NCBI GenBank assembly: GCA_964602145.1
Contig: CAZRPP010000001.1
Coordinates: 2,043-66,042 of the forward strand
Source of the DNA: an uncultured Candidatus Saccharibacteria bacterium
GTDB taxonomy: Bacteria > Patescibacteriota > Saccharimonadia > Saccharimonadales > UBA4665
Direction of reading: 5' to 3'
DNA length: 64,000 bases
The notes under the pieces were generated by a model that was not told the origin of the DNA, ran no database searches, and was given only the letters and a program-made list of their open reading frames with translations. Positions 1 through 54,242 of the stretch are shown here, piece by piece (the first letter of the stretch is position 1; each line of letters opens with the position of its first letter). The translations under genes and the position numbers were made by a program.

Positions 1-1
1 G

Positions 2-97
2 CTAAAAAGCAGGGGCAAGCCCTTCGCTAAGGGCGATATTGATAGCTTGAGTGCTGTCTATATTCTAGAAGATTTTCTAAAAGGGCTACCAGCATGA
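2..97 (+). CDS. ruvX: C-terminal fragment of a YqgF/RuvX-like Holliday junction resolvase (5' end outside window)
   Basis: Frame open from the window edge: ...GDIDSLSAVYILEDFLKGLPA*. The stop overlaps the mltG start (ATGA). The tail is RuvX-like and ruvX-mltG is a common gene order. Confidence 0.45.
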   Translation, partial: LKSRGKPFAKGDIDSLSAVYILEDFLKGLPA

Positions 98-1107
98 AAC
101 GATGGCTCTTCGTAGGCATACCGTTTATCCTTCTTGTCATTGTTGGCATTGGCCTTCGGTTGGCCTACGTGCACAACTTAGGTCCAGTCAGCTCCGATAC
201 GCGCACTCAGCTTGTAACAATAGAGAAGGGAAGTGGCGTAAAAAAAATCGCTGCCCAGCTAGCGGAAGTTCAGTTGATTCGTAGCCCTAAGGTTTTTGAG
301 ATATATGTGCATGGCCGCGGCGACTCTGCTAAGCTACAGGCCGGTGTTTACGCTTTGTCGCCCAGCCAAAGCCTGAAAGAGATTGTGGATACCCTGAGCG
401 GCGGTCGTGTGGCAAGTAAGCTGGTAACAATTTTGCCGGGTCGTCGAATCGATCAGATTAGGGCTGATTTCATTAACGACGGCTACAGCGTAGAAGAAGT
501 GGACGCCGCCCTGCGGCCTGCGCAGTACAAAGATATGCCCATCATGCGGCTTGTGCCGGCGGACATAACATCTCTTGAAGGCCTGTTGTATCCCGATTCT
601 TTTAACAGGACTCCGGTAACGCCTGCCACCGACATCATCAAGCAGTCACTAACAGCCATGTATGAGCATCTTACGCCCTCTTTGCAGCAATCGCTAGCTA
701 GCCAGGGTCTTAATCCGTACCAGGGGGTAATTATGGCATCAATTGTCGAGCAAGAAGTGTCCAATCAAACAGATAGAGCGCAGACCGCACAAGTGTTTCT
801 GAGCCGTCTAAAGCAGGGCATGAGTCTTGGGTCTGATGTAACTGCCTTCTATGGTTCTGTGGCGGCTGGCCAATCGCCTTCCTTAAAGTATGATTCGCCG
901 TATAACACCCTACTGCATCCTGGCTTGCCGATTGGCCCAATCAGCTCTGTGAGCAACAGTTCGCTCCAGGCTGTAGCCAATCCCGCAAATACAAACTGGT
1001 TATTCTTTGTTGCGGGTGACGACGGCACGACCTATTTCTCCAAGACTTTAGCTGAGCACCAAGCCCTTACCAATGCTCATTGTCACAAGCTCTGCGCGGC
1101 CCAGTAG
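94..1107 (+). CDS. mltG: Endolytic murein transglycosylase MltG (YceG-like)
   Basis: N-terminal TM helix followed by a YceG-like domain (GVYALSPSQSLKEIVDTL, LLYPDSF, ASIVEQE, YNTLLHPGLPIGPI). Confidence 0.85.
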   Translation: MKRWLFVGIPFILLVIVGIGLRLAYVHNLGPVSSDTRTQLVTIEKGSGVKKIAAQLAEVQLIRSPKVFEIYVHGRGDSAKLQAGVYALSPSQSLKEIVDTLSGGRVASKLVTILPGRRIDQIRADFINDGYSVEEVDAALRPAQYKDMPIMRLVPADITSLEGLLYPDSFNRTPVTPATDIIKQSLTAMYEHLTPSLQQSLASQGLNPYQGVIMASIVEQEVSNQTDRAQTAQVFLSRLKQGMSLGSDVTAFYGSVAAGQSPSLKYDSPYNTLLHPGLPIGPISSVSNSSLQAVANPANTNWLFFVAGDDGTTYFSKTLAEHQALTNAHCHKLCAAQ

Positions 1108-1215
1108 TTGCCCTCTGGGTTGATTTTTGATATGATACAGAGGTAGAAATGTGGTTTTTGGCCCCATTTTTACTCGGTACGAACGGCAGGTGGATATGCC
1201 GCACCCGTCCAAATT

Positions 1216-2346
1216 ATGAATAGTCTACAATCTACAATTCAGAAGGCAGTTGCTCCATTAGAGCCGCTGCGCGCCAAAGCAAATAGCAACCAAAACGTAT
1301 GGTTTGGTGGGGCGCTGCGTGCTGTTAAGCTTGTTGTCGTTCCCGCAGTTATCATTGGCACAGCCACTGTTTTCCTACTACAAGGTTCTCCGAGTACTAA
1401 ATCAGCGGCACCGTTGGCTGCTGCTCGACAGAATCAGCGAAGTGTTGTTAATCCGTTAGACCAAGTCGCTTCTGCCGGTATCGCGCGTAGTGTTGCACAG
1501 ATTACTGCCTTGCCGGAAGCTACGGCCGTTAGCAACCAGGCAGACAGCGAGACCACCCAGCTGGCAATGTCTCCAGTTACCAGTAACGTGGTAGCCAAGC
1601 CTCAGATTCCCGCTAAGACCACGTCGTTTGCGTCAAACCGCGATATTATTACCTACACTGTGCAGGCAGGTGATGGCGTTACGTCTGTTGCTAGTAAGTA
1701 CGGTGTTACCTCAGATAGCATTCGCTGGTCTAACAACATTACCGGCGATGCTCTTACCGTTGGCAACCAGATTTTGGTTCCGCCAGTGACCGGCATTATC
1801 TACACTGTAAAAGCGGGTGACACAGTGGCAAGCATCGCTTCAACCTACCAAGCAGATCAGAATAAAATTATTGCCTTTAACGATGCCGAAATCAGCGGCA
1901 TAAAGGAAGGTCAGCGCATTCTTATACCTGATGGTACTAAAGCCGCCGCTGTTGTTGTTGCCGCTACTCGTCCAGTTGCTACTTCTGGTAGCTCGTGGGG
2001 TGCGAGTGCAAACTATTCAGTGGCTGGTGGTTACAACGGCTATGATTATGGTTACTGCACCTGGTGGGTAGCCAAGATGCGGGCTGCCGCTGGCAATCCA
2101 GTCCCAACCAACCTTGGCAATGCTGCCACCTGGGGTTACCGCGCCGCCGCCATGGGCATCCCAACGGGCTCCACACCGCAGGTTGGCGCTGCAGTGGTAC
2201 TGGGCACCTACGGCTGGGGTCACGTTGGCTATGTCACCGCCGTTAACGGTGATGGTACTATTACAATTTCTGAGATGAACCATTTGGGGTGGAATGTGCA
2301 AAACTACCGCACGCTCTCCGGCGCCGGCTACCAATATGTCTACTGA
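1216..2346 (+). CDS. Cell-wall hydrolase with 2x LysM and a C-terminal CHAP domain
   Basis: Two LysM repeats (YTVQAGDGVTSVASKYGV; YTVKAGDTVASIASTYQ). CHAP-like C-terminus (GYCTWWVA...GHVGYVTAV). One N-terminal TM helix. Confidence 0.8.
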   Translation: MNSLQSTIQKAVAPLEPLRAKANSNQNVWFGGALRAVKLVVVPAVIIGTATVFLLQGSPSTKSAAPLAAARQNQRSVVNPLDQVASAGIARSVAQITALPEATAVSNQADSETTQLAMSPVTSNVVAKPQIPAKTTSFASNRDIITYTVQAGDGVTSVASKYGVTSDSIRWSNNITGDALTVGNQILVPPVTGIIYTVKAGDTVASIASTYQADQNKIIAFNDAEISGIKEGQRILIPDGTKAAAVVVAATRPVATSGSSWGASANYSVAGGYNGYDYGYCTWWVAKMRAAAGNPVPTNLGNAATWGYRAAAMGIPTGSTPQVGAAVVLGTYGWGHVGYVTAVNGDGTITISEMNHLGWNVQNYRTLSGAGYQYVY

Positions 2347-2520
2347 TCGGCCATTTTGGAACGGTTTCTGCAGCTTTTTATATCCGGTACTCTCTCACCG
2401 TACCTTTAGTACGGCTCACTCCGTTCCTCTCTAAAAAACTACATAACTCCGCCCCAAAATGGCCTCTGTCTTTTTCATTGGATTCTAGAATCTAGCTTCT
2501 ATCGTCTATAATCTATAGAG

Positions 2521-3801
2521 ATGAGTTTTGTAGATCGAGTTACGGTAACGGTGCAGGCGGGCGATGGTGGCCACGGCAAGCTAGGCTGGCGCCATGAAAA
2601 GTTTGTCTCTAAAGGCGGCCCGGATGGCGGCGATGGCGGCCACGGTGGCAACGTCATTTTAGTAGCCAGCCGTAACCAGGACACCCTAGCGCGCTTCCGT
2701 TTTGAAAAAGAAGTAAAAGCCCAACCCGGTCAGTCCGGCGGCGATTCCAATAAGCATGGCCGCAGCGGCCAAGACCTATTAGTCCAAGTGCCGGTGGGCA
2801 CGGTTGCTACCGGCCCAGAGGGCATTTTGGCCGATTTAACAGAGGACGGCCAAGAAGCTTTAGTAGCCCGCGGCGGCCGTGGCGGCTATGGCAACGCCCA
2901 CTTTTTATCCAGTACTCGCCAAGCCCCCAACTTTGCAGAAAAGGGCGAGCCGGGCGAGCGCCGCGAACTCAAACTAGAGCTCAAAATGATCGCCGATGTC
3001 GGCCTGATTGGCCTGCCCAACGCCGGCAAATCAACACTACTTAGCCGCATTTCCAATGCTCGTCCAGAGATTGCCAACTATCCGTTTACCACGCTGGTGC
3101 CCAACCTAGGCATGGCGCCGGTAGACAAAGACACTGCACTGTTGGTGGCGGATATCCCGGGCCTTATAGAAGGTGCCGCCGATGGCAAAGGTTTGGGACA
3201 CGACTTCCTGCGCCACGTTGAGCGTACTGCCGTGCTGCTCCATCTTATAGACGCCTACAGCGATGACCCCACCGGCTCCTATCAAACCATCCGCAAAGAA
3301 CTTGCTGCTTACAGCCCAGAGCTAGCCGCCCGGCCAGAAATTATCGTCCTCAACAAAATCGACGGCCTAGACGATGAAATTATTGCAGACATCAGCGAAC
3401 AGCTGCAGAAAGTAGCAGAGAGTGATGCACCGGTCATGCCCATTTCTGGCGCCGCTGGCACCGGCATTAAGCCGCTGCTCTACGCCGCCGCAAAATTAGT
3501 CCATGAAGAGCGTGCCGCCGCGGCAGCCCAGGCAGAGGAAGAAGCCAATAAACTACCCGTTATTACGCTGCCAGATACAGCGGCTGCCTGGCGCGTGGAA
3601 CGGCTTGGCCCCAAGACCTTCATGGTCACCGGCCGCAAGATAGAAAAATTTGCCCAGCGCACAGAATTTACCAACGATGAAGCCGTCCAGCGCCTACGCG
3701 ACATCCTCCGTAAAATGGGCATTATGCATAAGTTGGAGCGCGACAGTATTGAGGCTGGCAACACCATCAAAATCGCCGGCGTGGGTAAGCTCAAATATTG
3801 A
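2521..3801 (+). CDS. obg: GTPase Obg/CgtA
   Basis: Glycine-rich Obg fold (GGDGGHGG), G1 GLPNAGKST, G3 DIPGLIEGA, G4 NKID, and an OCT-like C-terminal domain. Confidence 0.95.
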   Translation: MSFVDRVTVTVQAGDGGHGKLGWRHEKFVSKGGPDGGDGGHGGNVILVASRNQDTLARFRFEKEVKAQPGQSGGDSNKHGRSGQDLLVQVPVGTVATGPEGILADLTEDGQEALVARGGRGGYGNAHFLSSTRQAPNFAEKGEPGERRELKLELKMIADVGLIGLPNAGKSTLLSRISNARPEIANYPFTTLVPNLGMAPVDKDTALLVADIPGLIEGAADGKGLGHDFLRHVERTAVLLHLIDAYSDDPTGSYQTIRKELAAYSPELAARPEIIVLNKIDGLDDEIIADISEQLQKVAESDAPVMPISGAAGTGIKPLLYAAAKLVHEERAAAAAQAEEEANKLPVITLPDTAAAWRVERLGPKTFMVTGRKIEKFAQRTEFTNDEAVQRLRDILRKMGIMHKLERDSIEAGNTIKIAGVGKLKY

Positions 3802-3872
3802 CAATTCCATAGCAAAAGACTACTATTCAGCTAGTGCAGCAGCCTGCGCTTTTCCCAATTTATTGGGGCTCC

Positions 3873-3900
3873 CCCCCTCCATGCGAGGGGGTGTAATTTT
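3873..3900. terminator. Hairpin between convergent obg and the MazF-like gene
   Basis: CCCCCTC-catgc-GAGGGGG, a 7-bp GC stem at 3873-3891, followed by tgtaatttt. Confidence 0.5.
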
Positions 3901-4291
3901 ATGAGAGCAATGTTTTGTTCAACCTTCTCTTGAGAGATTCAAATTGAAGATCAGATAATTTTCCAAGTTTTCTCTGCAGGCGCAATAGGTCAAGCGTTCG
4001 TATCTGATGGAGCATGGCATAACTGTCTCGTTTGTTGATAGTGCAGCGCATGTAGTATGTTCCCCTGTGCGGTATGCTCGTGAGGGGCACTGCCAGAAAA
4101 AGTTCCTTACTAAACACTCTAATGACAATTACCGGCCTGTAATAACCAACGTTTTTTCCGTCTTCTTCAAAGCCGATGTTGCTCCCCAGACATACCCACC
4201 AAACGTCTCCAACGTTACAACCAGTTGGTCGAATGCCATGGTTATGTAAATAGGCTTTGCGCTTTGTCCACGCAGTATAGTCTTTCATCAT
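3899..4291 (-). CDS. PemK/MazF-family toxin-like protein (solo)
   Basis: GDVWWVCLGSNIGFEEDGK...RPVIVIRV...AVPLTS...IRTLDLLRL matches the MazF/PemK SH3-like barrel pattern. Lower GC than neighbours. No adjacent small ORF. Confidence 0.6.
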   Translation of the reverse strand: MMKDYTAWTKRKAYLHNHGIRPTGCNVGDVWWVCLGSNIGFEEDGKNVGYYRPVIVIRVFSKELFLAVPLTSIPHRGTYYMRCTINKRDSYAMLHQIRTLDLLRLQRKLGKLSDLQFESLKRRLNKTLLS

Positions 4292-4382
4292 GCGCTAGCG
4301 TAGCACAAACCGGAAAATAAGTTATTAAATAATTATTAACTTTTATTTGCAAACAGGGGCGGTAAAAGTTACAATAAAGGGC

Positions 4383-5810
4383 ATGGCAGAGGGTAGCTTC
4401 TTTTTTTACGATCTTGAAACGTCTGGTATCCGGCCAGCCAATGCGCGCATTATGCAATTTGCGGGCCAGCGCACGAACATGAATCTGGAGCCCATCGGGG
4501 AGCCGGTCAATCTGTTGATTAAACTGGCACCAGATGTTTTGCCAGAGCCCGAAGCCATTCTGCTCACCGGTATTACGCCGCAGCAAACCCTGCAAGATGG
4601 CCTGACGGAATCGGAATTTTTGCAAGAATTTTATGACCAAGTCGTGCAGCCCGGCACCATTTTCATGGGCTTTAACAGTATCCGCTTTGACGATGAGTTT
4701 ATGCGCTACCTGCACTACCGCAATTTCTATGATCCGTATGAGTGGCAGTGGCAAAATGGCTGTTCCCGCTGGGATCTGCTAGACGTTGTGCGCATGACGC
4801 GCGCCCTCCGGCCAGACGGCATTGAGTGGCCATTTACCTCAGACGGCAAGCCGGCTAACAGATTAGAAATGCTCACCAAAGCCAACGGCCTGCTGCACGA
4901 TGCGGCGCACGATGCGCTGAGCGATGTACACGCCACTATCGCCGTGGCCAAACTTATTAAGGACAAGCAGCCAGACCTCTTTAACTATTTGCAAAATAAT
5001 CGGAACAAACAGGCCGTGGCCAAGCTGGTTAATGCCGGCCAACCATTTATCTATACCAGCGGCCGCTATCCCTCTGCTACGGGGCACACCACAGCTGTGG
5101 TTAAGCTGGTGGATCATCCGCAAAAAGATTCGGCACTGGTGTACGATTTGCGGCACGATCCCACGCCATTTTTACAGATGTCGCCCGCAGAACTAGCCGA
5201 TGCCTGGCGGTATAAAAAAGACCGCACGGCGGAAGATGTGTCGTTGCCCGTTAAGGTTATTAAATTTAATCGCTGTCCTACCGTGGCGCCGCTGGGCGTA
5301 CTGAAAGGAGCAGAGGAGCGCCTGCAGCTGAGCGTAGCGCAAATTGAGCAAAACCTGAAACTGCTTAAGGCTGGCCAAGCGGCCCTGACCACAAATATTC
5401 TCAAAGCCATAGAAATTTTAGATGCAGAACGTGGTGCCGCGCCGCAAGACGTTGATCAGCAATTATATGATGGTTTTCTGTCCGATACGGACAAGCTAGC
5501 CAGCCGAGCCGTGCGCGCCGCGGAAGCTAAAGACCTGCCGCAATTTACGGACAAACTCCATGATCAGCGATTGCAAAAACTATTGCCGCGCTATCAAGCC
5601 CGCAACTACCCGGCCAGCCTCAGCGGCGAGCAGCGGGAAGTGTGGGAAAACCACATTAAAGAAACACTCCTGGGCGGCGGCCCAAACAGCCGTTTGGCAC
5701 AGTACTTTGCCAAATTGCAAAAACTGGCCAGTCAGAATCTGACCAGCCAGCAAGAGTACATTCTAACAGAGCTGCAATTGTATGGAGAGTCGATTACGCC
5801 AGAGTTATAG
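4383..5810 (+). CDS. sbcB: Exodeoxyribonuclease I
   Basis: DnaQ-like exo motifs (FFFYDLETSG, FNSIRFDDEF, HDALSDV) plus an SbcB C-terminal domain. ATG at 4383 preferred over TTG at 4347. Confidence 0.9.
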   Translation: MAEGSFFFYDLETSGIRPANARIMQFAGQRTNMNLEPIGEPVNLLIKLAPDVLPEPEAILLTGITPQQTLQDGLTESEFLQEFYDQVVQPGTIFMGFNSIRFDDEFMRYLHYRNFYDPYEWQWQNGCSRWDLLDVVRMTRALRPDGIEWPFTSDGKPANRLEMLTKANGLLHDAAHDALSDVHATIAVAKLIKDKQPDLFNYLQNNRNKQAVAKLVNAGQPFIYTSGRYPSATGHTTAVVKLVDHPQKDSALVYDLRHDPTPFLQMSPAELADAWRYKKDRTAEDVSLPVKVIKFNRCPTVAPLGVLKGAEERLQLSVAQIEQNLKLLKAGQAALTTNILKAIEILDAERGAAPQDVDQQLYDGFLSDTDKLASRAVRAAEAKDLPQFTDKLHDQRLQKLLPRYQARNYPASLSGEQREVWENHIKETLLGGGPNSRLAQYFAKLQKLASQNLTSQQEYILTELQLYGESITPEL

Positions 5811-49239: not shown

Positions 49240-50586
49240 CTAGTATGGCATAGAAACCGCAATAGCGGTTATTGTTCTGCCAACGTAACTTTTATTCAGC
49301 CAAAAACATTTTTTAGGCTCCATGACTCCTTGGGGTGTCGGAAGCTTATCCTGGGCATTTTTGCCTTTGGGGCGAACATGCGCTACAAAGCTTTCAGTAG
49401 ATTTTGGGAGGTTACTGGCATCGATAGCAACGCGGCGCTTCGTTTCCTCCCAGACGCGCTGTGCTTCCTCACGGTCCGCAAAAGGCATGTTCCAATAGCC
49501 CACTTTTTCAAATCGATATGCGCCAGGCTCATATTCACGGAAGACAACTAATAAAAATTTCTGCTCAATTTTGGCAAAAAACGTACTATCCTCCCATTCC
49601 TCGTTGACAATATCTATGTAGCTAAAGGCAGGGAAAGACATAGCTTCTTTTGGTGCCCAATTTTTCCCAACCCGGATAGTCTTTACTTCCACGCCAGCTT
49701 TCTCAAGCTCGGGAATAGATCGCTTGGTCGTTCCGAGCATGCGCATAGTCAGATTCCGATAAAAGCCCTTATCGTTTTTACCTTTTTTATGGAAGCTCAG
49801 CATGTCGGAAATTTCTGCTACAGTTTTGCCTAGAAACGGCCTAAATTTGTCCTGGGTCGCCTCTTCAATGGTAAGCTTCCCACTCCCTTTTAGTAGCCCG
49901 GCCCCTGAAGCATGACCAGCAATAATCCTGTTCACATATGTTGGCTTGAGCGAAAAAGCCCGTGATTTAGCTAGTGTGTCAGAAAAAGGTTGGTGTCTCA
50001 GCGGCTCGTTAACTCCGCCCGAACCCTTGCGGCAGGCACCGAGATAGTAGGTATCACCCTCAGATAATTCATGCGCTTTACCGTCCAAAATTTTTTGCCG
50101 GATTGTCTCCCAGTCGCGCCTAATAATCTTTAAATCTTCAGCCGGGAATTCAAATAGCAGGGGATTTAATACGAATCGTCTGTCGTAAACAGCGACCCCT
50201 TTTTCGTACAGATAGAACAGAATCAGCATCAAACGACATTTTTCCATGAGCGACGATGTGTCCCACTGCTCATCGGCCAGCTGTAAATAATTAATCATGG
50301 TTAGCACTAGCCGCTCCTTGGCTCTATAACTACCGTCCGAGCGCTTTAGAACGCCGGTGGTTTTGAGCTCCACGCCTGCTTCTGGAAAGTCGGGCAGATG
50401 CGTTGTGTTATCGGGCCGGTAATGGTAGTAGTATTTTTCCACCATGTTGCCTAGATCGCCTTTATTGCTAATATTTTCAATTATGTGGCTTAAATCTACC
50501 GCCTCCGCCAAAGTTTTACCAGACAAACCATGGGCAAAATCTAGCAACGATTGAGGGGAAGTAATATCGTACAAAAGCTTTGGCAT
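49240..50586 (-). CDS. Type II restriction endonuclease, MutH/Sau3AI family (predicted GATC)
   Basis: Blocks shared with Sau3AI from memory: EAGVELKTT, KERLVLTMINY, GKAHELSEG, QPFSD..AKSRAFSLK, AMSFPAF, NEEWEDS, HVRPKG, KCFWLNKSY. Start taken at the second ATG (TGTTACAAT -10 box lies 7 nt upstream); alternative start at 50595. Confidence 0.85.
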   Translation of the reverse strand: MPKLLYDITSPQSLLDFAHGLSGKTLAEAVDLSHIIENISNKGDLGNMVEKYYYHYRPDNTTHLPDFPEAGVELKTTGVLKRSDGSYRAKERLVLTMINYLQLADEQWDTSSLMEKCRLMLILFYLYEKGVAVYDRRFVLNPLLFEFPAEDLKIIRRDWETIRQKILDGKAHELSEGDTYYLGACRKGSGGVNEPLRHQPFSDTLAKSRAFSLKPTYVNRIIAGHASGAGLLKGSGKLTIEEATQDKFRPFLGKTVAEISDMLSFHKKGKNDKGFYRNLTMRMLGTTKRSIPELEKAGVEVKTIRVGKNWAPKEAMSFPAFSYIDIVNEEWEDSTFFAKIEQKFLLVVFREYEPGAYRFEKVGYWNMPFADREEAQRVWEETKRRVAIDASNLPKSTESFVAHVRPKGKNAQDKLPTPQGVMEPKKCFWLNKSYVGRTITAIAVSMPY

Positions 50587-50608
50587 ATGCCTCATTGTAA
50601 CAAAAGGG

Positions 50609-50637
50609 TTGATCCCGCGCGCCAAAGTTGCTAAGAT
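50609..50637 (+). promoter_or_regulatory. Putative methyltransferase promoter TTGATC-17-TAAGAT with a GATC inside the -35
   Basis: Hexamers at 50609-14 and 50632-37. GATC at 50611-14 also falls in the spacer of the divergent endonuclease promoter (-10 box on the minus strand at 50594-99). Confidence 0.45.
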
Positions 50638-50647
50638 AGGAACATAC

Positions 50648-51892
50648 ATGGGGAAGCAGATAAGAATTGCAGAACTTTTTGCCGGCGTGGGCGGTTTTAG
50701 GATTGGCCTAGAAAACGCCGACAAATCTTTTAAGACTGTTTGGGCAAACCAGTACGAGCCGGCCACTACGCGCCAGCACGCCTCAGAAGTGTATGTGGCC
50801 CGTTTTGGTCCTGCCGGTTTTGACGGCCGCGACATAGAAAAAGTTATTGAGCGTGACTTTGATTCTATCCCTGACCATGATTTATTGGTGGGCGGCTTTC
50901 CGTGCCAGGATTATTCTGTTGCCAGCACTCTCAAAAATTCTCACGGGCTGATTGGCAAAAAGGGTGTTTTGTTCTGGTCTATTTACTCAATTTTGAAGCG
51001 CAAAGGCGCTGCTGCGCCGGACTACATTTTCTTAGAAAATGTGGATCGGCTACTCAAATCGCCTGCTAAGCAGCGCGGCAAAGATTTTGCGGTTATGCTA
51101 GCGGCCTTGTCTGATTTGGGTTATATCATTGAGTGGCGCGTGATAAACGCCGCTGACTACGGCTTTCCGCAGCGCCGCCGCCGGGTGTTTATTGTGGGTT
51201 ATAAAAAAGGTACCAAACTGCACGCCGCGGCTTTGGCCGCGGCTCGTTCTGATTGGCTGCTATCCTCTGGTGTTTTAGCCGATGCATTTCCGGTTGAGCA
51301 ATCACTAAACGCGCGCGAGTTTGTTTTAGAAGGCACGTATGCGGAAATCACCAAAAACTTTTCCGCGAGCAAACCTGTCGTGAGTCCATTTGAAAATGCT
51401 GGCATGGTGGTTGACCGGCAAGTTGTAACAGGTAAAGTCGCGCCCATGTACAGTGGCCCACGAACTGTGCTGGGTGATATTTTGATTCCAGAAGAAGACG
51501 TGCCCGCCGAATTCTTTATAGCTGACTCTGTCCTACCAACCTGGACTTATCTAAAAGGCGCTAAGAAGGAAGAGCGCACATCTGCTAGCGGTCACGTGTA
51601 TCACTATGCAGAGGGTGCAATGGTTTTCCCTGACGCATTAGATAAGCCCTCCCGCACAATAATTACCGGCGAAGGTGGTTCTGGCGCCTCCCGCTTTAAG
51701 CACGTTGTTCTAACGCCCTCTGGACGTTTGCGACGTTTGACGCCACTGGAGCTAGAGAGGCTAGACATGTTCCCCGATAATCACACTCTGCTGGACGGTA
51801 TTTCAGATGGCAAACGAGCTTTCTTTATGGGGAATGCCTTGGTCGTAGGGGCGATTGAGCGGGTGGGGTGTGCGCTAATAAAGCGATTTTAA
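50648..51892 (+). CDS. DNA (cytosine-5)-methyltransferase, partner of the Sau3AI-like endonuclease
   Basis: C5-MTase motifs I FAGVGGF, IV GGFPCQDYS, VI ENV, VIII QRRRRVFIVG, X GNALVV. Confidence 0.9.
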   Translation: MGKQIRIAELFAGVGGFRIGLENADKSFKTVWANQYEPATTRQHASEVYVARFGPAGFDGRDIEKVIERDFDSIPDHDLLVGGFPCQDYSVASTLKNSHGLIGKKGVLFWSIYSILKRKGAAAPDYIFLENVDRLLKSPAKQRGKDFAVMLAALSDLGYIIEWRVINAADYGFPQRRRRVFIVGYKKGTKLHAAALAAARSDWLLSSGVLADAFPVEQSLNAREFVLEGTYAEITKNFSASKPVVSPFENAGMVVDRQVVTGKVAPMYSGPRTVLGDILIPEEDVPAEFFIADSVLPTWTYLKGAKKEERTSASGHVYHYAEGAMVFPDALDKPSRTIITGEGGSGASRFKHVVLTPSGRLRRLTPLELERLDMFPDNHTLLDGISDGKRAFFMGNALVVGAIERVGCALIKRF

Positions 51893-51907: not shown

Positions 51908-51936
51908 TTGACCAATAATAAAAAACAAAGTATAAT
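51908..51936 (+). promoter_or_regulatory. Consensus-like promoter TTGACC-17-TATAAT for the HEPN gene, leaderless
   Basis: The -10 box ends 6 nt before ATG 51943. The surrounding DNA is very AT-rich. Confidence 0.6.
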
Positions 51937-51942
51937 ATTATT

Positions 51943-52593
51943 ATGTCAAATCCGGAACTTTCTCCAGCACAGTCATTTTACGGATGTCCTTCGCGGGATG
52001 TTCATGAACAATTAGGGCAGGGTTTTCTGAATATTACGGCAAGGATAAAATGTGCAAAGTTCCCAGAGACAGTAGTCATTAAGGACTTAGTCTCGGGCAT
52101 AGGCGATACTGCTACTCAAACGAGAATCGCTGATAGGCTAGGTTGCCAGGGATGCCCTAATAAACGAGTAAATCCTGAAGTTGCCCACAAACAGCAGATG
52201 GTCCAATCTTTGCACCACAAAATCGCCAGTTATTGTGGTAACCTTTTTATTGACGGGCATTACATAAATGCAAGCCTAACATCCTTTATTATTGTGAAAG
52301 ATAGATTACGTGAAGTTTCAGGGTTTGAACGAGCTAATGATGCTGTTGGTAAGGGTCGTCTCTATTTCAACGGCGCGCCAAGTAAAAATGTTGATGATGA
52401 CTTCCAGCGTTCTGCTCAATTTGCACTTACGAGCATAGATTTTGCCAGAAACACGCTTGCACACTCTAACCTCACATTTCCCTCAGATATGCCCGAGGAA
52501 GAAAAGCTTAATACTACTTTCAGTGATTTAATGCTTTCATCAAGAGGCATGTGGCTTTTAGACGGCGCGGTGCAAAAACCTGTAGGTATGTAG
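51943..52593 (+). CDS. Cys-rich N-terminal domain fused to a Ymh/TIGR02391-like HEPN domain (RNxxxH)
   Basis: LHHKIASYCGNLFIDGHYINA...L.EVSG...FARNTLAHS matches the Hypoth_Ymh HEPN pattern. Five Cys in the first 75 aa (incl. GCQGCP). Appears AT-rich by eye. Adjacent to the R-M pair. Confidence 0.6.
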   Translation: MSNPELSPAQSFYGCPSRDVHEQLGQGFLNITARIKCAKFPETVVIKDLVSGIGDTATQTRIADRLGCQGCPNKRVNPEVAHKQQMVQSLHHKIASYCGNLFIDGHYINASLTSFIIVKDRLREVSGFERANDAVGKGRLYFNGAPSKNVDDDFQRSAQFALTSIDFARNTLAHSNLTFPSDMPEEEKLNTTFSDLMLSSRGMWLLDGAVQKPVGM

Positions 52594-52604: not shown

Positions 52605-52632
52605 CGGGTTAGGAGACTCAAAACCCCTGACC
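52605..52632 (-). repeat. Displaced copy of the tRNA-Gly 3' part (T-arm plus acceptor)
   Basis: 52605-52622 is identical to 52752-52769 (18 nt). The next ~10 nt are similar (ccctgacc vs tcctggcc). Confidence 0.7.
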
Positions 52633-52653
52633 GCTGCCGCGGCCAGGGGCGAA

Positions 52654-52689
52654 TCCTGGCCTCATTTTGATTTTGAAGAGGCCAGGAGT
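52654..52689. repeat. Hairpin built from direct and inverted copies of the tRNA-Gly segment TCCTGGCCTC
   Basis: 52654-52663 is a direct copy of 52771-80. 52675-52689 is a perfect 15-nt inverted copy of 52769-83. Together they give a 10-bp stem. Confidence 0.65.
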
Positions 52690-52711
52690 CTAAGCTCTAC
52701 TCATATGCAAT

Positions 52712-52744
52712 AGAAAAGACCCAAGCTTTGCCTGGGTCTTTTCT
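52712..52744. terminator. Hairpin terminator abutting the tRNA-Gly 3' end
   Basis: AGAAAAGACCCA-agctttgcc-TGGGTCTTTTCT. Confidence 0.75.
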
Positions 52745-52746
52745 AT

Positions 52747-52822
52747 TGGTGCGGGTTAGGAGACTCAAACTCCTGGCCTCTTCCTTGGCAAGGAAGCGCT
52801 CTATCAACTGAGCTAAACCCGC
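52747..52822 (-). tRNA. tRNA-Gly(GCC), CCA encoded
   Basis: Acceptor GCGGGTT/AACCCGC, anticodon loop TTGCCAA, T-arm CAGGA-GTTTGAG-TCTCC-like. Confidence 0.9.
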
Positions 52823-53497: not shown

Positions 53498-53571
53498 GGC
53501 GCGTTGGCGGAGTAGTTACGCAGCAGTCTGCAAAACTGTGTACATGGGTGCAAATCCCGTACGCGCCTCCA
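53498..53571 (+). tRNA. tRNA-Cys(GCA), CCA encoded
   Basis: Acceptor GGCGCGT/ACGCGCC, discriminator T, anticodon loop CTGCAAA. Confidence 0.85.
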
Positions 53572-53649
53572 AGTTTTGACGTGAATTTCACGTCATTTTT
53601 TATGTCCAAAAATCTAGCAAATAACAGGGGTCAGGAGTATAATAAAAGC

Positions 53650-54147
53650 ATGGGTAAAAGGTGTTCCTGGACCGATATGATGTTAGCCGCCGCGGTAGCC
53701 AAAAATAGAAGCTATCGAGCCGTTATTTTGGAGCTTGGGCTAGTGCCGGCCGGGGGTAATTATGTGCAGGTGCAGGAGCGATGCAAGATCCTAAAACTGG
53801 ATACTTCGCATTTCAAAGGCATGGGCTGGAACACCGGGGAAGATAAGAAAACTACTAATGTCGCGCGTTCGCTCGGGTCGATGTTACGTAAAGGGAGCGG
53901 CGTGCAGTCCTATAAATTAAAACTGCGACTGTTCCAGGAAAATATCATGCACCCTGAGTGTGTACTTTGTGGCTGGGCGGAGTGCAGTAAAGATGGTAGA
54001 ATTCCTGTAGAGCTAGATCATGTCAACGGGGACCACTCGGATAATCGTTTAGAAAATCTTAGAATTTTGTGCCCGAATTGTCATAGCTTACAGCCTACTC
54101 ACAGAGGAAGAAACAAAAAGAGAAGATTAATAAAAACACAAATTTGA
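53650..54147 (+). CDS. Free-standing HNH endonuclease
   Basis: HNH core ELDHVNGDHSDNRLENLRILCPNCH. TATAAT (53638-43) lies 6 nt before ATG 53650. Alternative ATG at 53602. The longer track ORF runs across tRNA-Cys. Confidence 0.8.
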   Translation: MGKRCSWTDMMLAAAVAKNRSYRAVILELGLVPAGGNYVQVQERCKILKLDTSHFKGMGWNTGEDKKTTNVARSLGSMLRKGSGVQSYKLKLRLFQENIMHPECVLCGWAECSKDGRIPVELDHVNGDHSDNRLENLRILCPNCHSLQPTHRGRNKKRRLIKTQI

Positions 54148-54156
54148 CAAAATTGT

Positions 54157-54242
54157 GCGCGGGTGTTGTAATCGGTAGCCAAGAAGCACTTAAAATGCTT
54201 TGCCCAAAAGGCGTGCGGGTTCGAGTCCCGCCCCGCGCACCA
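54157..54242 (+). tRNA. tRNA-Leu(TAA), type II, CCA encoded
   Basis: Acceptor GCGCGGG/CCCGCGC, anticodon loop CTTAAAA, long variable arm. Confidence 0.9.

What the first reader, a model, noticed from the sequence alone, without database searches (positions are those of the whole stretch)
51943..52593. Cys-rich N-terminal domain fused to a Ymh-type HEPN domain, next to the R-M pair
The C-terminal ~130 aa follow the TIGR02391/Hypoth_Ymh HEPN pattern (LH..I...LF.DGHY..A ... EVSG ... F.RNTLAHS), including the canonical R-N-x-x-x-H RNase motif. The N-terminal ~85 aa carry five Cys residues (GCPSRD, KCAKF, GCQGCP) and match nothing I know. The gene looks AT-rich, has its own near-consensus leaderless promoter, and lies immediately downstream of a Sau3AI-like R-M system and upstream of tRNA-Gly integration debris. 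This is a typical defence-island setting, so it is plausibly an abortive-infection-type RNase with a novel sensor domain.
Basis: partly seen in the sequence, partly recalled or inferred. Interest (0 to 1): 0.6.

Follow-up and report, generated by a model that had tools for sequence, protein, structure and literature searches.

The report
Cys4-domain Ymh HEPN RNase gene
A real, probably RNA-cutting "HEPN" protein of the known Ymh family carries an undescribed four-cysteine (probably zinc-binding) front domain found only in Saccharibacteria; it lies beside a restriction-modification pair here, but its relatives elsewhere do not.

Summary
Window 51943-52593 (+) encodes a 216-aa protein. Residues 89-216 are a Ymh/Hypoth_Ymh HEPN domain (PF09509, 26.4 bits against a cut-off of 25) with an intact R169-N-x3-H174 motif that is invariant in 13 full-length homologs. 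Residues 1-85 form a separate domain with four invariant cysteines (C15, C37, C68, C71). It matches no Pfam family and no PDB sequence or fold. The fifth Cys lies in the HEPN part.

The architecture defines a small, fast-evolving family. It was found in 4 of 401 sampled genomes of the class; two more carry the N-domain alone. It was in none of 400 other genomes of the phylum.

The gene sits in a 3.4-kb accessory block with a Sau3AI-family R-M pair, next to a tRNA-Gly att-like scar. Neither the gene nor the endonuclease was found in three same-genus genomes. In nine other contexts the homologs are solitary genes with no defence neighbour, so the R-M adjacency is local, not conserved. The leaderless promoter is the genome's norm.

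Most likely it is a self-regulated HEPN RNase of the conflict or defence type, gated by the Cys4 domain. This is inferred, not shown. It is a new variant of a known kind and of modest interest. This scan has already noted Ymh proteins on other DNA (141 notes, at least 135 genomes).

The parts
51908..51936 (+). Sigma-70-type promoter: -35 TTGACC, 17-nt spacer, -10 TATAAT. The -10 box ends 6 nt before the ATG, and there is no Shine-Dalgarno sequence, so the mRNA is probably leaderless.
   Evidence: 11 of 12 consensus positions. One search shows the same layout at 22 of 52 genes in the window, so it is the genome's norm.
51943..52593 (+). Gene for the 216-aa Cys4-domain + Ymh HEPN protein (P0001).
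51943..52197 (+). N-terminal domain, residues 1-85. It has four invariant Cys (codons at 51985-87, 52051-53, 52144-46, 52153-55). The motifs are xCP(S/N)R, C(P/A)(K/R)(Y/F)P and LGCxxC. The predicted topology is alpha-beta-beta-beta-alpha followed by the CxxC loop.
   Evidence: Alignments. AF2 model (pLDDT about 70-77). No Pfam or PDB match.
52207..52590 (+). Ymh-family HEPN domain, residues 89-216. The predicted RNase motif R169-N-T-L-A-H174 is encoded at 52447-52464.
   Evidence: AF2 pLDDT is above 94 for this all-helical domain.
52605..52648 (-). Degenerate copy of the 3' half of tRNA-Gly (att-like scar). The first 18 nt are identical to 52752-52769. It starts 12 nt after the stop codon.
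52641..52661 (+). Terminator-like GC hairpin followed by a T-rich tract, downstream of the gene.
52747..52822 (-). tRNA-Gly(gcc). In the sister genome G003 a serine-recombinase/HsdM island abuts the same tRNA.
50648..51892 (+). C5 cytosine DNA methyltransferase (Dcm type). It is on the same strand as the HEPN gene and ends 51 nt upstream of it. No terminator was detected between the two.
49240..50592 (-). Sau3AI-family type II restriction endonuclease, divergent from the methylase.
   Evidence: Not found in three same-genus genomes.

Best explanation
The gene encodes a cytoplasmic two-domain protein. The C-terminal domain is a Ymh-family HEPN domain with a complete R-N-x3-H site. By analogy with characterised HEPN proteins, it most likely acts as a metal-independent endoribonuclease, probably as a dimer. 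The N-terminal 85 residues are a separate small alpha/beta domain held by four invariant cysteines, most likely a structural Zn(Cys)4 site. No conserved partner gene (antitoxin, MNT or ATPase) accompanies the family, so this domain is the only candidate for keeping the RNase silent and for switching it on. The trigger could be binding of a ligand or nucleic acid, a change in oligomer state, or loss of zinc on oxidation. The gene behaves as an accessory, fast-evolving conflict gene of Saccharibacteria, of the abortive-infection or toxin type. In this genome it landed next to a Sau3AI-type R-M pair at a tRNA-Gly integration hotspot, which gives a local two-layer defence block. Shown here: the gene, the domain identities, the residue conservation, the rarity, the variable-slot location and the fast divergence. 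Inferred: RNase activity, zinc binding, the regulatory role of the N-domain and the defence function.
For: Ymh identity: PF09509 scores above its cut-off. The HMMER search of representatives gave 121 hits with E<1e-10, and nearly all hits of the profile search carry PF09509. R169, N170 and H174 are invariant in 13 full-length homologs, together with H91, E129 and G136. Anantharaman et al. 2013 (PMC3710099) classify Ymh as a HEPN family with a conserved Rx4-6H motif, found solo or fused to variable N-domains, and in R-M operons. Makarova et al. 2012 (PMC3506569) also report the association with R-M.

N-domain: exactly four Cys in every member, all invariant, while the rest of the domain averages 26% pairwise identity against 40% for the HEPN part. 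The domain also exists alone as 82-aa and 113-aa ORFs in two genomes, so it folds independently. With a 16-sequence alignment AF2 gives pLDDT 85.5 overall.

Accessory and conflict behaviour: the fused architecture is in 4 of 401 sampled genomes of the class, spread over four families, and in 0 of 400 other genomes of the phylum. It was not found in three same-genus genomes. In two syntenic genomes the flanking genes are 61-86% identical but this gene only 41%. In a third genome of that genus the same maf-rarA slot holds other genes plus a duplicated rarA 3' fragment.

Local setting: a Sau3AI R-M pair, an att-like tRNA-Gly scar, and a recombinase plus HsdM island at the same tRNA in sister genome G003. 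Five of 16 Ymh proteins in alignment A7 weakly match PADLOC PD-Lambda-3_B.
Against: No defence model hits the protein itself (PADLOC, 0 families at E<=1), and PHROGs gives nothing. Nine other contexts of the family show no adjacent R-M or other recognisable defence gene. No tblastn hit was found in the phage or plasmid collections. The N-domain was never seen fused to another effector, which is the usual signature of a sensor module. It is near neutral in charge, which does not favour RNA binding. A solitary, constitutively promoted HEPN toxin with no antitoxin needs an auto-inhibition mechanism that remains hypothetical. Foldseek found no significant solved HEPN structure for the model. No Ymh protein has been tested biochemically in the literature I could search.
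Confidence: 0.5

Rival explanations
1. A selfish toxin or addiction-type element. The HEPN RNase, with intramolecular or RNA-level control, stabilises the small mobile block that carries it and gives no anti-phage benefit.
For: The gene is solitary, sits in variable slots and is patchy and fast-evolving. It lies next to an att-like scar. The same window holds other toxin-like cassettes according to earlier notes.
Against: No antitoxin gene and no conserved antisense element were seen. In the maf-rarA lineage the gene is retained at one position across genomes whose flanking genes have diverged to 61-86% identity, which suggests some benefit.
Confidence: 0.15
2. A lineage-specific RNA-processing or regulatory RNase with a cellular (non-conflict) role, for example stress-induced RNA turnover, with the Zn-Cys4 domain acting as a redox or metal switch.
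For: Most homologs lie among ordinary genes such as maf, rarA, ksgA, NUDIX and murL. The gene is a single gene with its own ordinary promoter. No defence model hits it.
Against: It is present in only about 1% of sampled genomes of the class and was not found in three same-genus genomes. It evolves much faster than its neighbours. The slots it occupies vary in content.
Confidence: 0.15
3. A PrrC/RloC-like guard of the adjacent Sau3AI R-M system. The RNase is held inactive by the R-M proteins and is released when a phage blocks restriction.
For: It lies 51 nt downstream of the methylase, on the same strand, with no detected terminator between them. The literature proposes such a role for Ymh fused to paraMORC ATPases inside R-M loci (PMC3710099).
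Against: It has no ATPase or other R-M-interacting domain. None of nine homolog contexts has an R-M neighbour. The gene has its own promoter.
Confidence: 0.1
4. A non-catalytic HEPN protein, for example a zinc-finger nucleic-acid-binding regulator that uses the HEPN fold only as a scaffold.
For: Some HEPN families are non-enzymatic (MtlR and others in Table 1 of PMC3710099). Foldseek gave no significant hit to a solved HEPN RNase.
Against: R, N and H of the catalytic motif are invariant across a family that is otherwise 40% identical in this domain.
Confidence: 0.05

Closest known systems
Ymh family of the HEPN superfamily (Pfam PF09509 Hypoth_Ymh / TIGR02391; Anantharaman et al. 2013, PMC3710099)
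   Same: The C-terminal 128 residues match the family model above Pfam's cut-off. The Rx4-6H motif is intact. Like other members, it has a variable N-terminal region, and in this locus it lies next to an R-M system.
   Different: The N-terminal Cys4 domain is not among the reported fusion partners (paraMORC, AbiJ-NTD1/2, AbiTii) and matches no Pfam model. The score is below NCBI's TIGR02391 naming cut-off. The subfamily was found only in Saccharibacteria.
Abi-type single-chain HEPN proteins with variable N-terminal domains (AbiJ, AbiTii-HEPN fusions)
   Same: One polypeptide, with a small N-terminal domain of unknown role followed by a C-terminal HEPN RNase domain. Solitary genes in variable regions.
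   Different: AbiJ N-domains recur on many different effectors (REase, TIR, kinases). The Cys4 domain was seen only with Ymh or alone. No phage-exclusion data exist for it.
PrrC / RloC anticodon nucleases and paraMORC-Ymh fusions embedded in R-M loci
   Same: A HEPN RNase encoded beside an R-M system. This suggests a second, suicidal layer of defence.
   Different: There is no ATPase domain, and the R-M adjacency is not conserved in homologs.
PD-lambda-3 (Vassallo et al. 2022; PADLOC models PD-Lambda-3_B)
   Same: Five of 16 Ymh proteins in alignment A7 give weak matches (best E 5e-4), so the HEPN domains are distantly related.
   Different: The window's protein gives no match. PD-lambda-3 is a two-gene system with a PD-(D/E)XK nuclease (PMC10952713), and no such partner is present here.
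Zinc-extended dsRBD of S. pombe Dcr1 (Barraud et al. 2011, PMC3199388). This is an architectural analogy for the N-domain only.
   Same: Both have a predicted alpha-beta-beta-beta-alpha core with one metal ligand after helix 1, one from the sheet and two in a short Cys motif just after helix 2. Foldseek gives sub-threshold hits to dsRBDs (3llh_B, target-normalised TM-score 0.50).
   Different: There is no sequence relationship (hhalign probability 0.2% against bacterial dsRBDs; no Pfam dsrm hit). All Foldseek E-values are above 0.1. The domain is not basic.

Membership tests
Ymh / Hypoth_Ymh HEPN (PF09509) | Score at or above Pfam's gathering cut-off (25 bits) | tested here: met
   26.4 bits, E 6.9e-6, residues 89-178. 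26.5 bits in the six-frame genome search. All 13 full-length homologs match, best E 5e-16.
Ymh / Hypoth_Ymh HEPN (PF09509) | NCBIfam TIGR02391 curated cut-off (39.45 bits) | tested here: not met
   32.4 bits, E 8.2e-8, residues 90-197. It is a significant but divergent member.
Ymh / Hypoth_Ymh HEPN (PF09509) | Conserved Rx4-6H (here R-N-x3-H) motif | tested here: met
   R169, N170 and H174 are invariant in alignment A2. Codons at 52447-52464.
Ymh / Hypoth_Ymh HEPN (PF09509) | All-alpha HEPN fold | tested here: inconclusive
   AF2 predicts helices with pLDDT above 94. Foldseek found no solved structure with E<0.1, and a profile search of PDB sequences found nothing.
Ymh / Hypoth_Ymh HEPN (PF09509) | Endoribonuclease activity | not testable with these tools
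   Needs a biochemical assay. I found no tested Ymh protein in the searchable literature.
PD-lambda-3 (PADLOC) | Match to PD-Lambda-3_A/B models and a two-gene layout | tested here: not met
   No PADLOC family at E<=1 for the protein. Only weak hits for 5 of 16 proteins in alignment A7. No nuclease partner gene is present.
PrrC/RloC-like R-M guard | ATPase (ABC or paraMORC) domain fused to the HEPN domain, and conserved embedding in R-M operons | tested here: not met
   Only PF09509 was found. Homolog neighbourhoods lack R-M genes.
HEPN-MNT toxin-antitoxin pair | Adjacent minimal nucleotidyltransferase gene | tested here: not met
   The neighbours are a Dcm methylase and tRNA debris. No conserved neighbour was seen in the homolog loci.
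dsRBD (PF00035) for the N-domain | Sequence or profile match to dsrm | tested here: not met
   No Pfam hit at E<=10 for 17 N-domains. hhalign probability 0.2% against 17 RNase III dsRBDs. Only the topology and sub-threshold Foldseek hits agree.
Zn(Cys)4 structural domain for the N-domain | Four conserved metal ligands | tested here: met
   C15, C37, C68 and C71 are invariant in 17 sequences with 27% mean column identity. Every one of the 13 full-length members counted has exactly four Cys in this domain.
Zn(Cys)4 structural domain for the N-domain | Bound metal and tetrahedral geometry | not testable with these tools
An Fe-S cluster cannot be excluded.

The most novel reading that the evidence does not exclude
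The Cys4 domain is a new zinc-stabilised, dsRBD-like (alpha-beta-beta-beta-alpha) sensor restricted to Saccharibacteria. It gates a single-chain HEPN suicide RNase, responding to double-stranded or foreign RNA or acting as a thiol/zinc redox switch. The stand-alone copies of the domain in other genomes act as trans-inhibitors (antitoxin-like). This would be a self-contained one-protein immune or stress module in ultra-small epibiotic bacteria, which have few known defences.
Probability: 0.12. Interest if true: 0.6.

Novelty: new variant of a known kind. Interest (0 to 1): 0.35.

Why it matters
Saccharibacteria and other CPR bacteria have tiny genomes and few recognised anti-phage systems beyond restriction-modification. 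The Ymh HEPN family has been predicted to be defensive since 2011-2013, but I found no biochemical test of it in the literature I could search and no solved structure. A compact 216-aa member whose only possible regulator is an 85-residue four-cysteine domain would be a simple system for asking how a solitary HEPN RNase is kept silent and then triggered. If it turns out to be only an ordinary divergent Ymh protein, the result still adds a domain architecture and a lineage to the family's catalogue.

Tried and rejected
- Single-sequence AF2 gave an unusable model (pLDDT 37).
- The k-mer-based homolog search with the protein alone returned only itself. The homologs came from the full HMMER search.
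Smaller alignments added only three loci carrying the N-domain (L028, L029, L047).
- The mixed alignment aimed at N-domain fusions to other C-termini found only known members.
- PDB sequence and profile searches found nothing relevant. The single phmmer hit is to a His-tag/TEV linker of an unrelated entry and is a chance match.
- Foldseek against PDB and BFVD found nothing with E<0.1. The sub-threshold dsRBD hits and one phage 'restriction alleviation protein' hit (target-normalised TM-score 0.53, E 0.6) are leads only.
- I tested the dsRBD idea by hhalign against 17 RNase III dsRBDs from related genomes. It failed (probability 0.2%).
- PHROGs gave no hit. tblastn against the phage and plasmid collections gave no hit.
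- I looked for a third att copy that would bracket the R-M/Ymh block. None was found with up to 3 mismatches or by local alignment, so the block is not delimited by the tRNA-Gly repeats.
- I could not measure Cys-Cys distances because model coordinates are not exposed.

Full report
**The thing itself.** Window 51943-52593 (+) is an open frame of 216 codons. It is preceded by TTGACC-17-TATAAT at 51908-51936, and the -10 box ends 6 nt before the ATG with no Shine-Dalgarno sequence. Pfam PF09509 (Hypoth_Ymh) matches residues 89-178 at 26.4 bits, just above the gathering cut-off of 25. A six-frame search of the genome reproduces this at 26.5 bits. TIGR02391 matches residues 90-197 with E 8e-8, but its 32.4 bits fall below NCBI's naming cut-off of 39.45. 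The motif R169-N-T-L-A-H174 is encoded at 52447-52464. The protein has five Cys in total.

**The organism.** The genome has 708 kb in 58 contigs and is about 76% complete. The window therefore comes from a Saccharibacterium (Patescibacteria/CPR).

**Homologs.** A word-based search found only the protein itself. A full HMMER scan of 1.84 billion representative proteins found 177 relatives with E<1e-3 and 121 with E<1e-10. Most align only to residues 85-216 and carry unrelated N-termini. About a dozen proteins of 202-224 aa align end to end at 28-39% identity. In a 13-sequence alignment of these, C15, C37, C68, C71, H91, E129, G136, R169, N170 and H174 are invariant. All 13 match PF09509 and none shows a Pfam domain in its N-terminal part. 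The catalytic motif is therefore kept in every homolog, and the Cys-rich region is a conserved domain, not a low-complexity tail.

**The N-domain.** I aligned 17 N-terminal regions, including two stand-alone ORFs. They show xCP(S/N)R, C(P/A)(K/R)(Y/F)P and LGCxxC, with only the four Cys, one Ala and one Gly invariant, and 27% mean column identity. Each of the 13 full-length members has exactly four Cys in this domain. Mean pairwise identity is 26% for the N-domain against 40% for the HEPN part, and net charge runs from -5 to +3. No Pfam model matches even at E<=10, and no PDB sequence matches a profile of the domain.

With a 16-sequence alignment AlphaFold2 gives pLDDT 85.5. The HEPN part scores above 94 and is all-helical. 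The N-domain scores about 70-77, with topology helix 8-13, strands 19-24, 31-37 and 40-49, helix 56-65, then the CxxC loop. Foldseek finds nothing with E<0.1 in PDB or BFVD. The best partial hits are dsRBDs (3llh_B, target-normalised TM-score 0.50) and a phage 'restriction alleviation protein' (0.53), all below significance. The ligand layout is one after helix 1, one in the sheet and two just after helix 2. This recalls the zinc-extended dsRBD of S. pombe Dcr1 (PMC3199388). However, hhalign against 17 bacterial RNase III dsRBDs gives a probability of 0.2%, and the domain is not basic, so I treat the resemblance as an analogy only. Four invariant Cys in a small cytoplasmic domain most simply mean a structural Zn(Cys)4 site. 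An Fe-S cluster is not excluded.

**Distribution.**
- A profile of the N-domain matched 6 of 401 evenly sampled genomes of the class, this genome included. Four carry the N-domain fused to Ymh, in four different families. Two carry it alone, as ORFs of 113 and 82 aa.
- It matched none of 400 other genomes sampled across the phylum.
- It was never seen on another effector.
- The full protein was not found in three same-genus genomes that are 75-93% complete.
- All members with a taxonomic label are Saccharibacteria.

**The local neighbourhood.**
- Upstream lie a Sau3AI-family endonuclease at 49240-50592 (-) (NF040973, 404.8 bits against a cut-off of 300; PDB 4pxg, E 7e-56) and a divergent Dcm-type C5 methylase at 50648-51892 (+).
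- The HEPN gene follows the methylase after 51 nt, on the same strand, with no detected terminator between them.
- Twelve nucleotides after its stop codon begins a degenerate copy of about 43 nt of the 3' half of tRNA-Gly. The first 18 nt of this copy are identical to the tRNA. An inverted tRNA fragment and hairpins follow, and then the intact tRNA-Gly(gcc) at 52747-52822.
- I found no third copy that would bracket the R-M/HEPN block.
- The closest relative, G001, is syntenic up to the sortase gene at about 49.05 kb and then differs.
- The endonuclease was not found in G001, G002 or G003.
- In G003 the same tRNA-Gly is abutted by a serine recombinase and an HsdM-type methylase of 817 aa.

The 49.2-52.7 kb stretch is therefore accessory DNA at a tRNA-Gly integration hotspot, and 'defence island' is a fair label for this locus. 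The gene's GC content (43.2%) is about 1.5 sd below the mean of genes in the window. The leaderless promoter layout is shared by 22 of 52 genes in the window, so it does not mark this gene out.

**Neighbourhoods of homologs.** I examined nine other contexts.
- Two genomes have ABC transporter - maf - X - rarA - ... - typA (L024, L028).
- One has tRNA-Leu/tRNA-Cys - X - DEAH helicase (L023).
- One lies between membrane proteins and a PAP2-kinase protein, a few kb from tRNA-Phe/tRNA-Gly (L025).
- One has NUDIX - G5 protein - X - ksgA (L005).
- One lies next to murL (L112).
- Three lie among unknown genes (L004, L047/L113).

None has an R-M system or a convincing PADLOC hit beside it, and there is no conserved partner gene.

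These are not plainly housekeeping positions either. Between the two syntenic maf-rarA genomes the flanking proteins are 61-86% identical, while X is only 41% identical. In a third genome of that genus the same slot holds a 222-aa and a 133-aa ORF plus a duplicated rarA 3' fragment instead. The family thus behaves as a rare, fast-evolving, solitary cargo gene of variable slots.

**What is known.** Anantharaman et al. 2013 (PMC3710099) place Ymh (PF09509) in the HEPN superfamily with a conserved Rx4-6H motif. They report it as a solo protein or fused to paraMORC, AbiJ-NTD1/2 or AbiTii domains, 'in operon with R-M', and they propose PrrC-like roles for the paraMORC fusions. Makarova et al. 2012 (PMC3506569) also note the link between Ymh and R-M. 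I found no biochemical study of a Ymh protein and no paper linking HEPN and Saccharibacteria in the searchable library. PADLOC has no model that hits this protein. Five of 16 Ymh proteins in alignment A7 weakly match PD-Lambda-3_B (best E 5e-4), which indicates a distant relationship to one component of an experimentally selected E. coli defence system. Earlier notes of this scan list Ymh-type proteins 141 times in at least 135 genomes, usually as two-gene cassettes. None of the eight shown has this N-domain.

**Mechanism.**
- Shown: the domain identities, the invariant residues, the independence of the N-domain, the rarity, the fast divergence, and the local R-M/att setting.
- Inferred from established HEPN knowledge: the RNxxxH domain is a metal-independent endoribonuclease that needs dimerisation.
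- Inferred from the absence of any conserved neighbour: control must be built into the protein, and the Cys4 domain is the only candidate. It might bind a trigger, set the oligomer state, or act as a zinc/thiol switch.
- Defence: the abortive-infection-type reading rests on the family's reputation, the evolutionary behaviour and this one locus. I give it about 0.5.

The rivals are a purely selfish toxin (0.15), a lineage-specific cellular RNase or redox-controlled regulator (0.15), a PrrC-like guard of the adjacent R-M (0.1) and a non-catalytic protein (0.05).

**Verdict.** This is a new domain architecture within a known, untested HEPN family, seen only in Saccharibacteria. Interest is modest, and it would rise if the Cys4 domain proved to be a genuine trigger-sensing module.

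Noticed in passing
window 53602-54147 (+), between tRNA-Cys 53498-53571 and tRNA-Leu 54157-54242: A free-standing HNH homing-endonuclease-like gene (phrog_10822, E 2e-42; PADLOC HEase, E 1e-19). A 60%-identical homolog sits at the matching place in same-genus genome G003 (L042 7077-7466).
   Followed up: partly
L042 (G003:C16) 1-4860: In a same-genus genome the DNA beyond the 3' end of tRNA-Gly(gcc) carries a serine recombinase (XisF/IS607-like) and an 817-aa HsdM-type methylase instead of the Sau3AI R-M/Ymh block. The tRNA-Gly is an integration hotspot in this genus.
   Followed up: partly
L026 7911-8252 (-) (G055) and L027 7950-8198 (+) (G276): Stand-alone ORFs of 113 and 82 aa consist only of the Cys4 domain, with all four Cys kept and no HEPN remnant detected. 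Their neighbours match no Pfam or PADLOC family.
   Followed up: partly
L111 (G336:C8) 440-1950, compared with L024 and L028: The maf-rarA intergenic slot varies within one genus. It holds Cys4-Ymh in two genomes. In a third it holds a 222-aa weakly methyltransferase-like ORF, a 133-aa ORF and a duplicated 95-nt rarA 3' fragment.
   Followed up: partly
window 52605-52746: The spacer between the gene and tRNA-Gly is built from tRNA-Gly pieces. It holds a degenerate direct copy of about 43 nt, a 20-nt inverted fragment (52675-52694 against 52764-52783) and a 19-bp terminator hairpin (52708-52748).
   Followed up: yes
whole window: 22 of 52 long ORFs have a TANNNT box ending 5-8 nt before the ATG and no Shine-Dalgarno sequence. 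15 have an SD-like motif. Leaderless mRNAs appear common in this genome.
   Followed up: partly
window 50592-50648: The longest-ORF calls for the endonuclease and the methylase overlap by 227 nt (50609-50835). Homology starts suggest true starts at about 50592 (-) and 50648 (+), which leaves a divergent control region of about 55 nt.
   Followed up: no
alignment A7 (Ymh proteins from metagenomes): Five of 16 Ymh proteins weakly match PADLOC PD-Lambda-3_B (best E 5e-4). One matches Aga_HEPN. This points to a distant link between Ymh and a component of a validated E. coli defence system.
   Followed up: no
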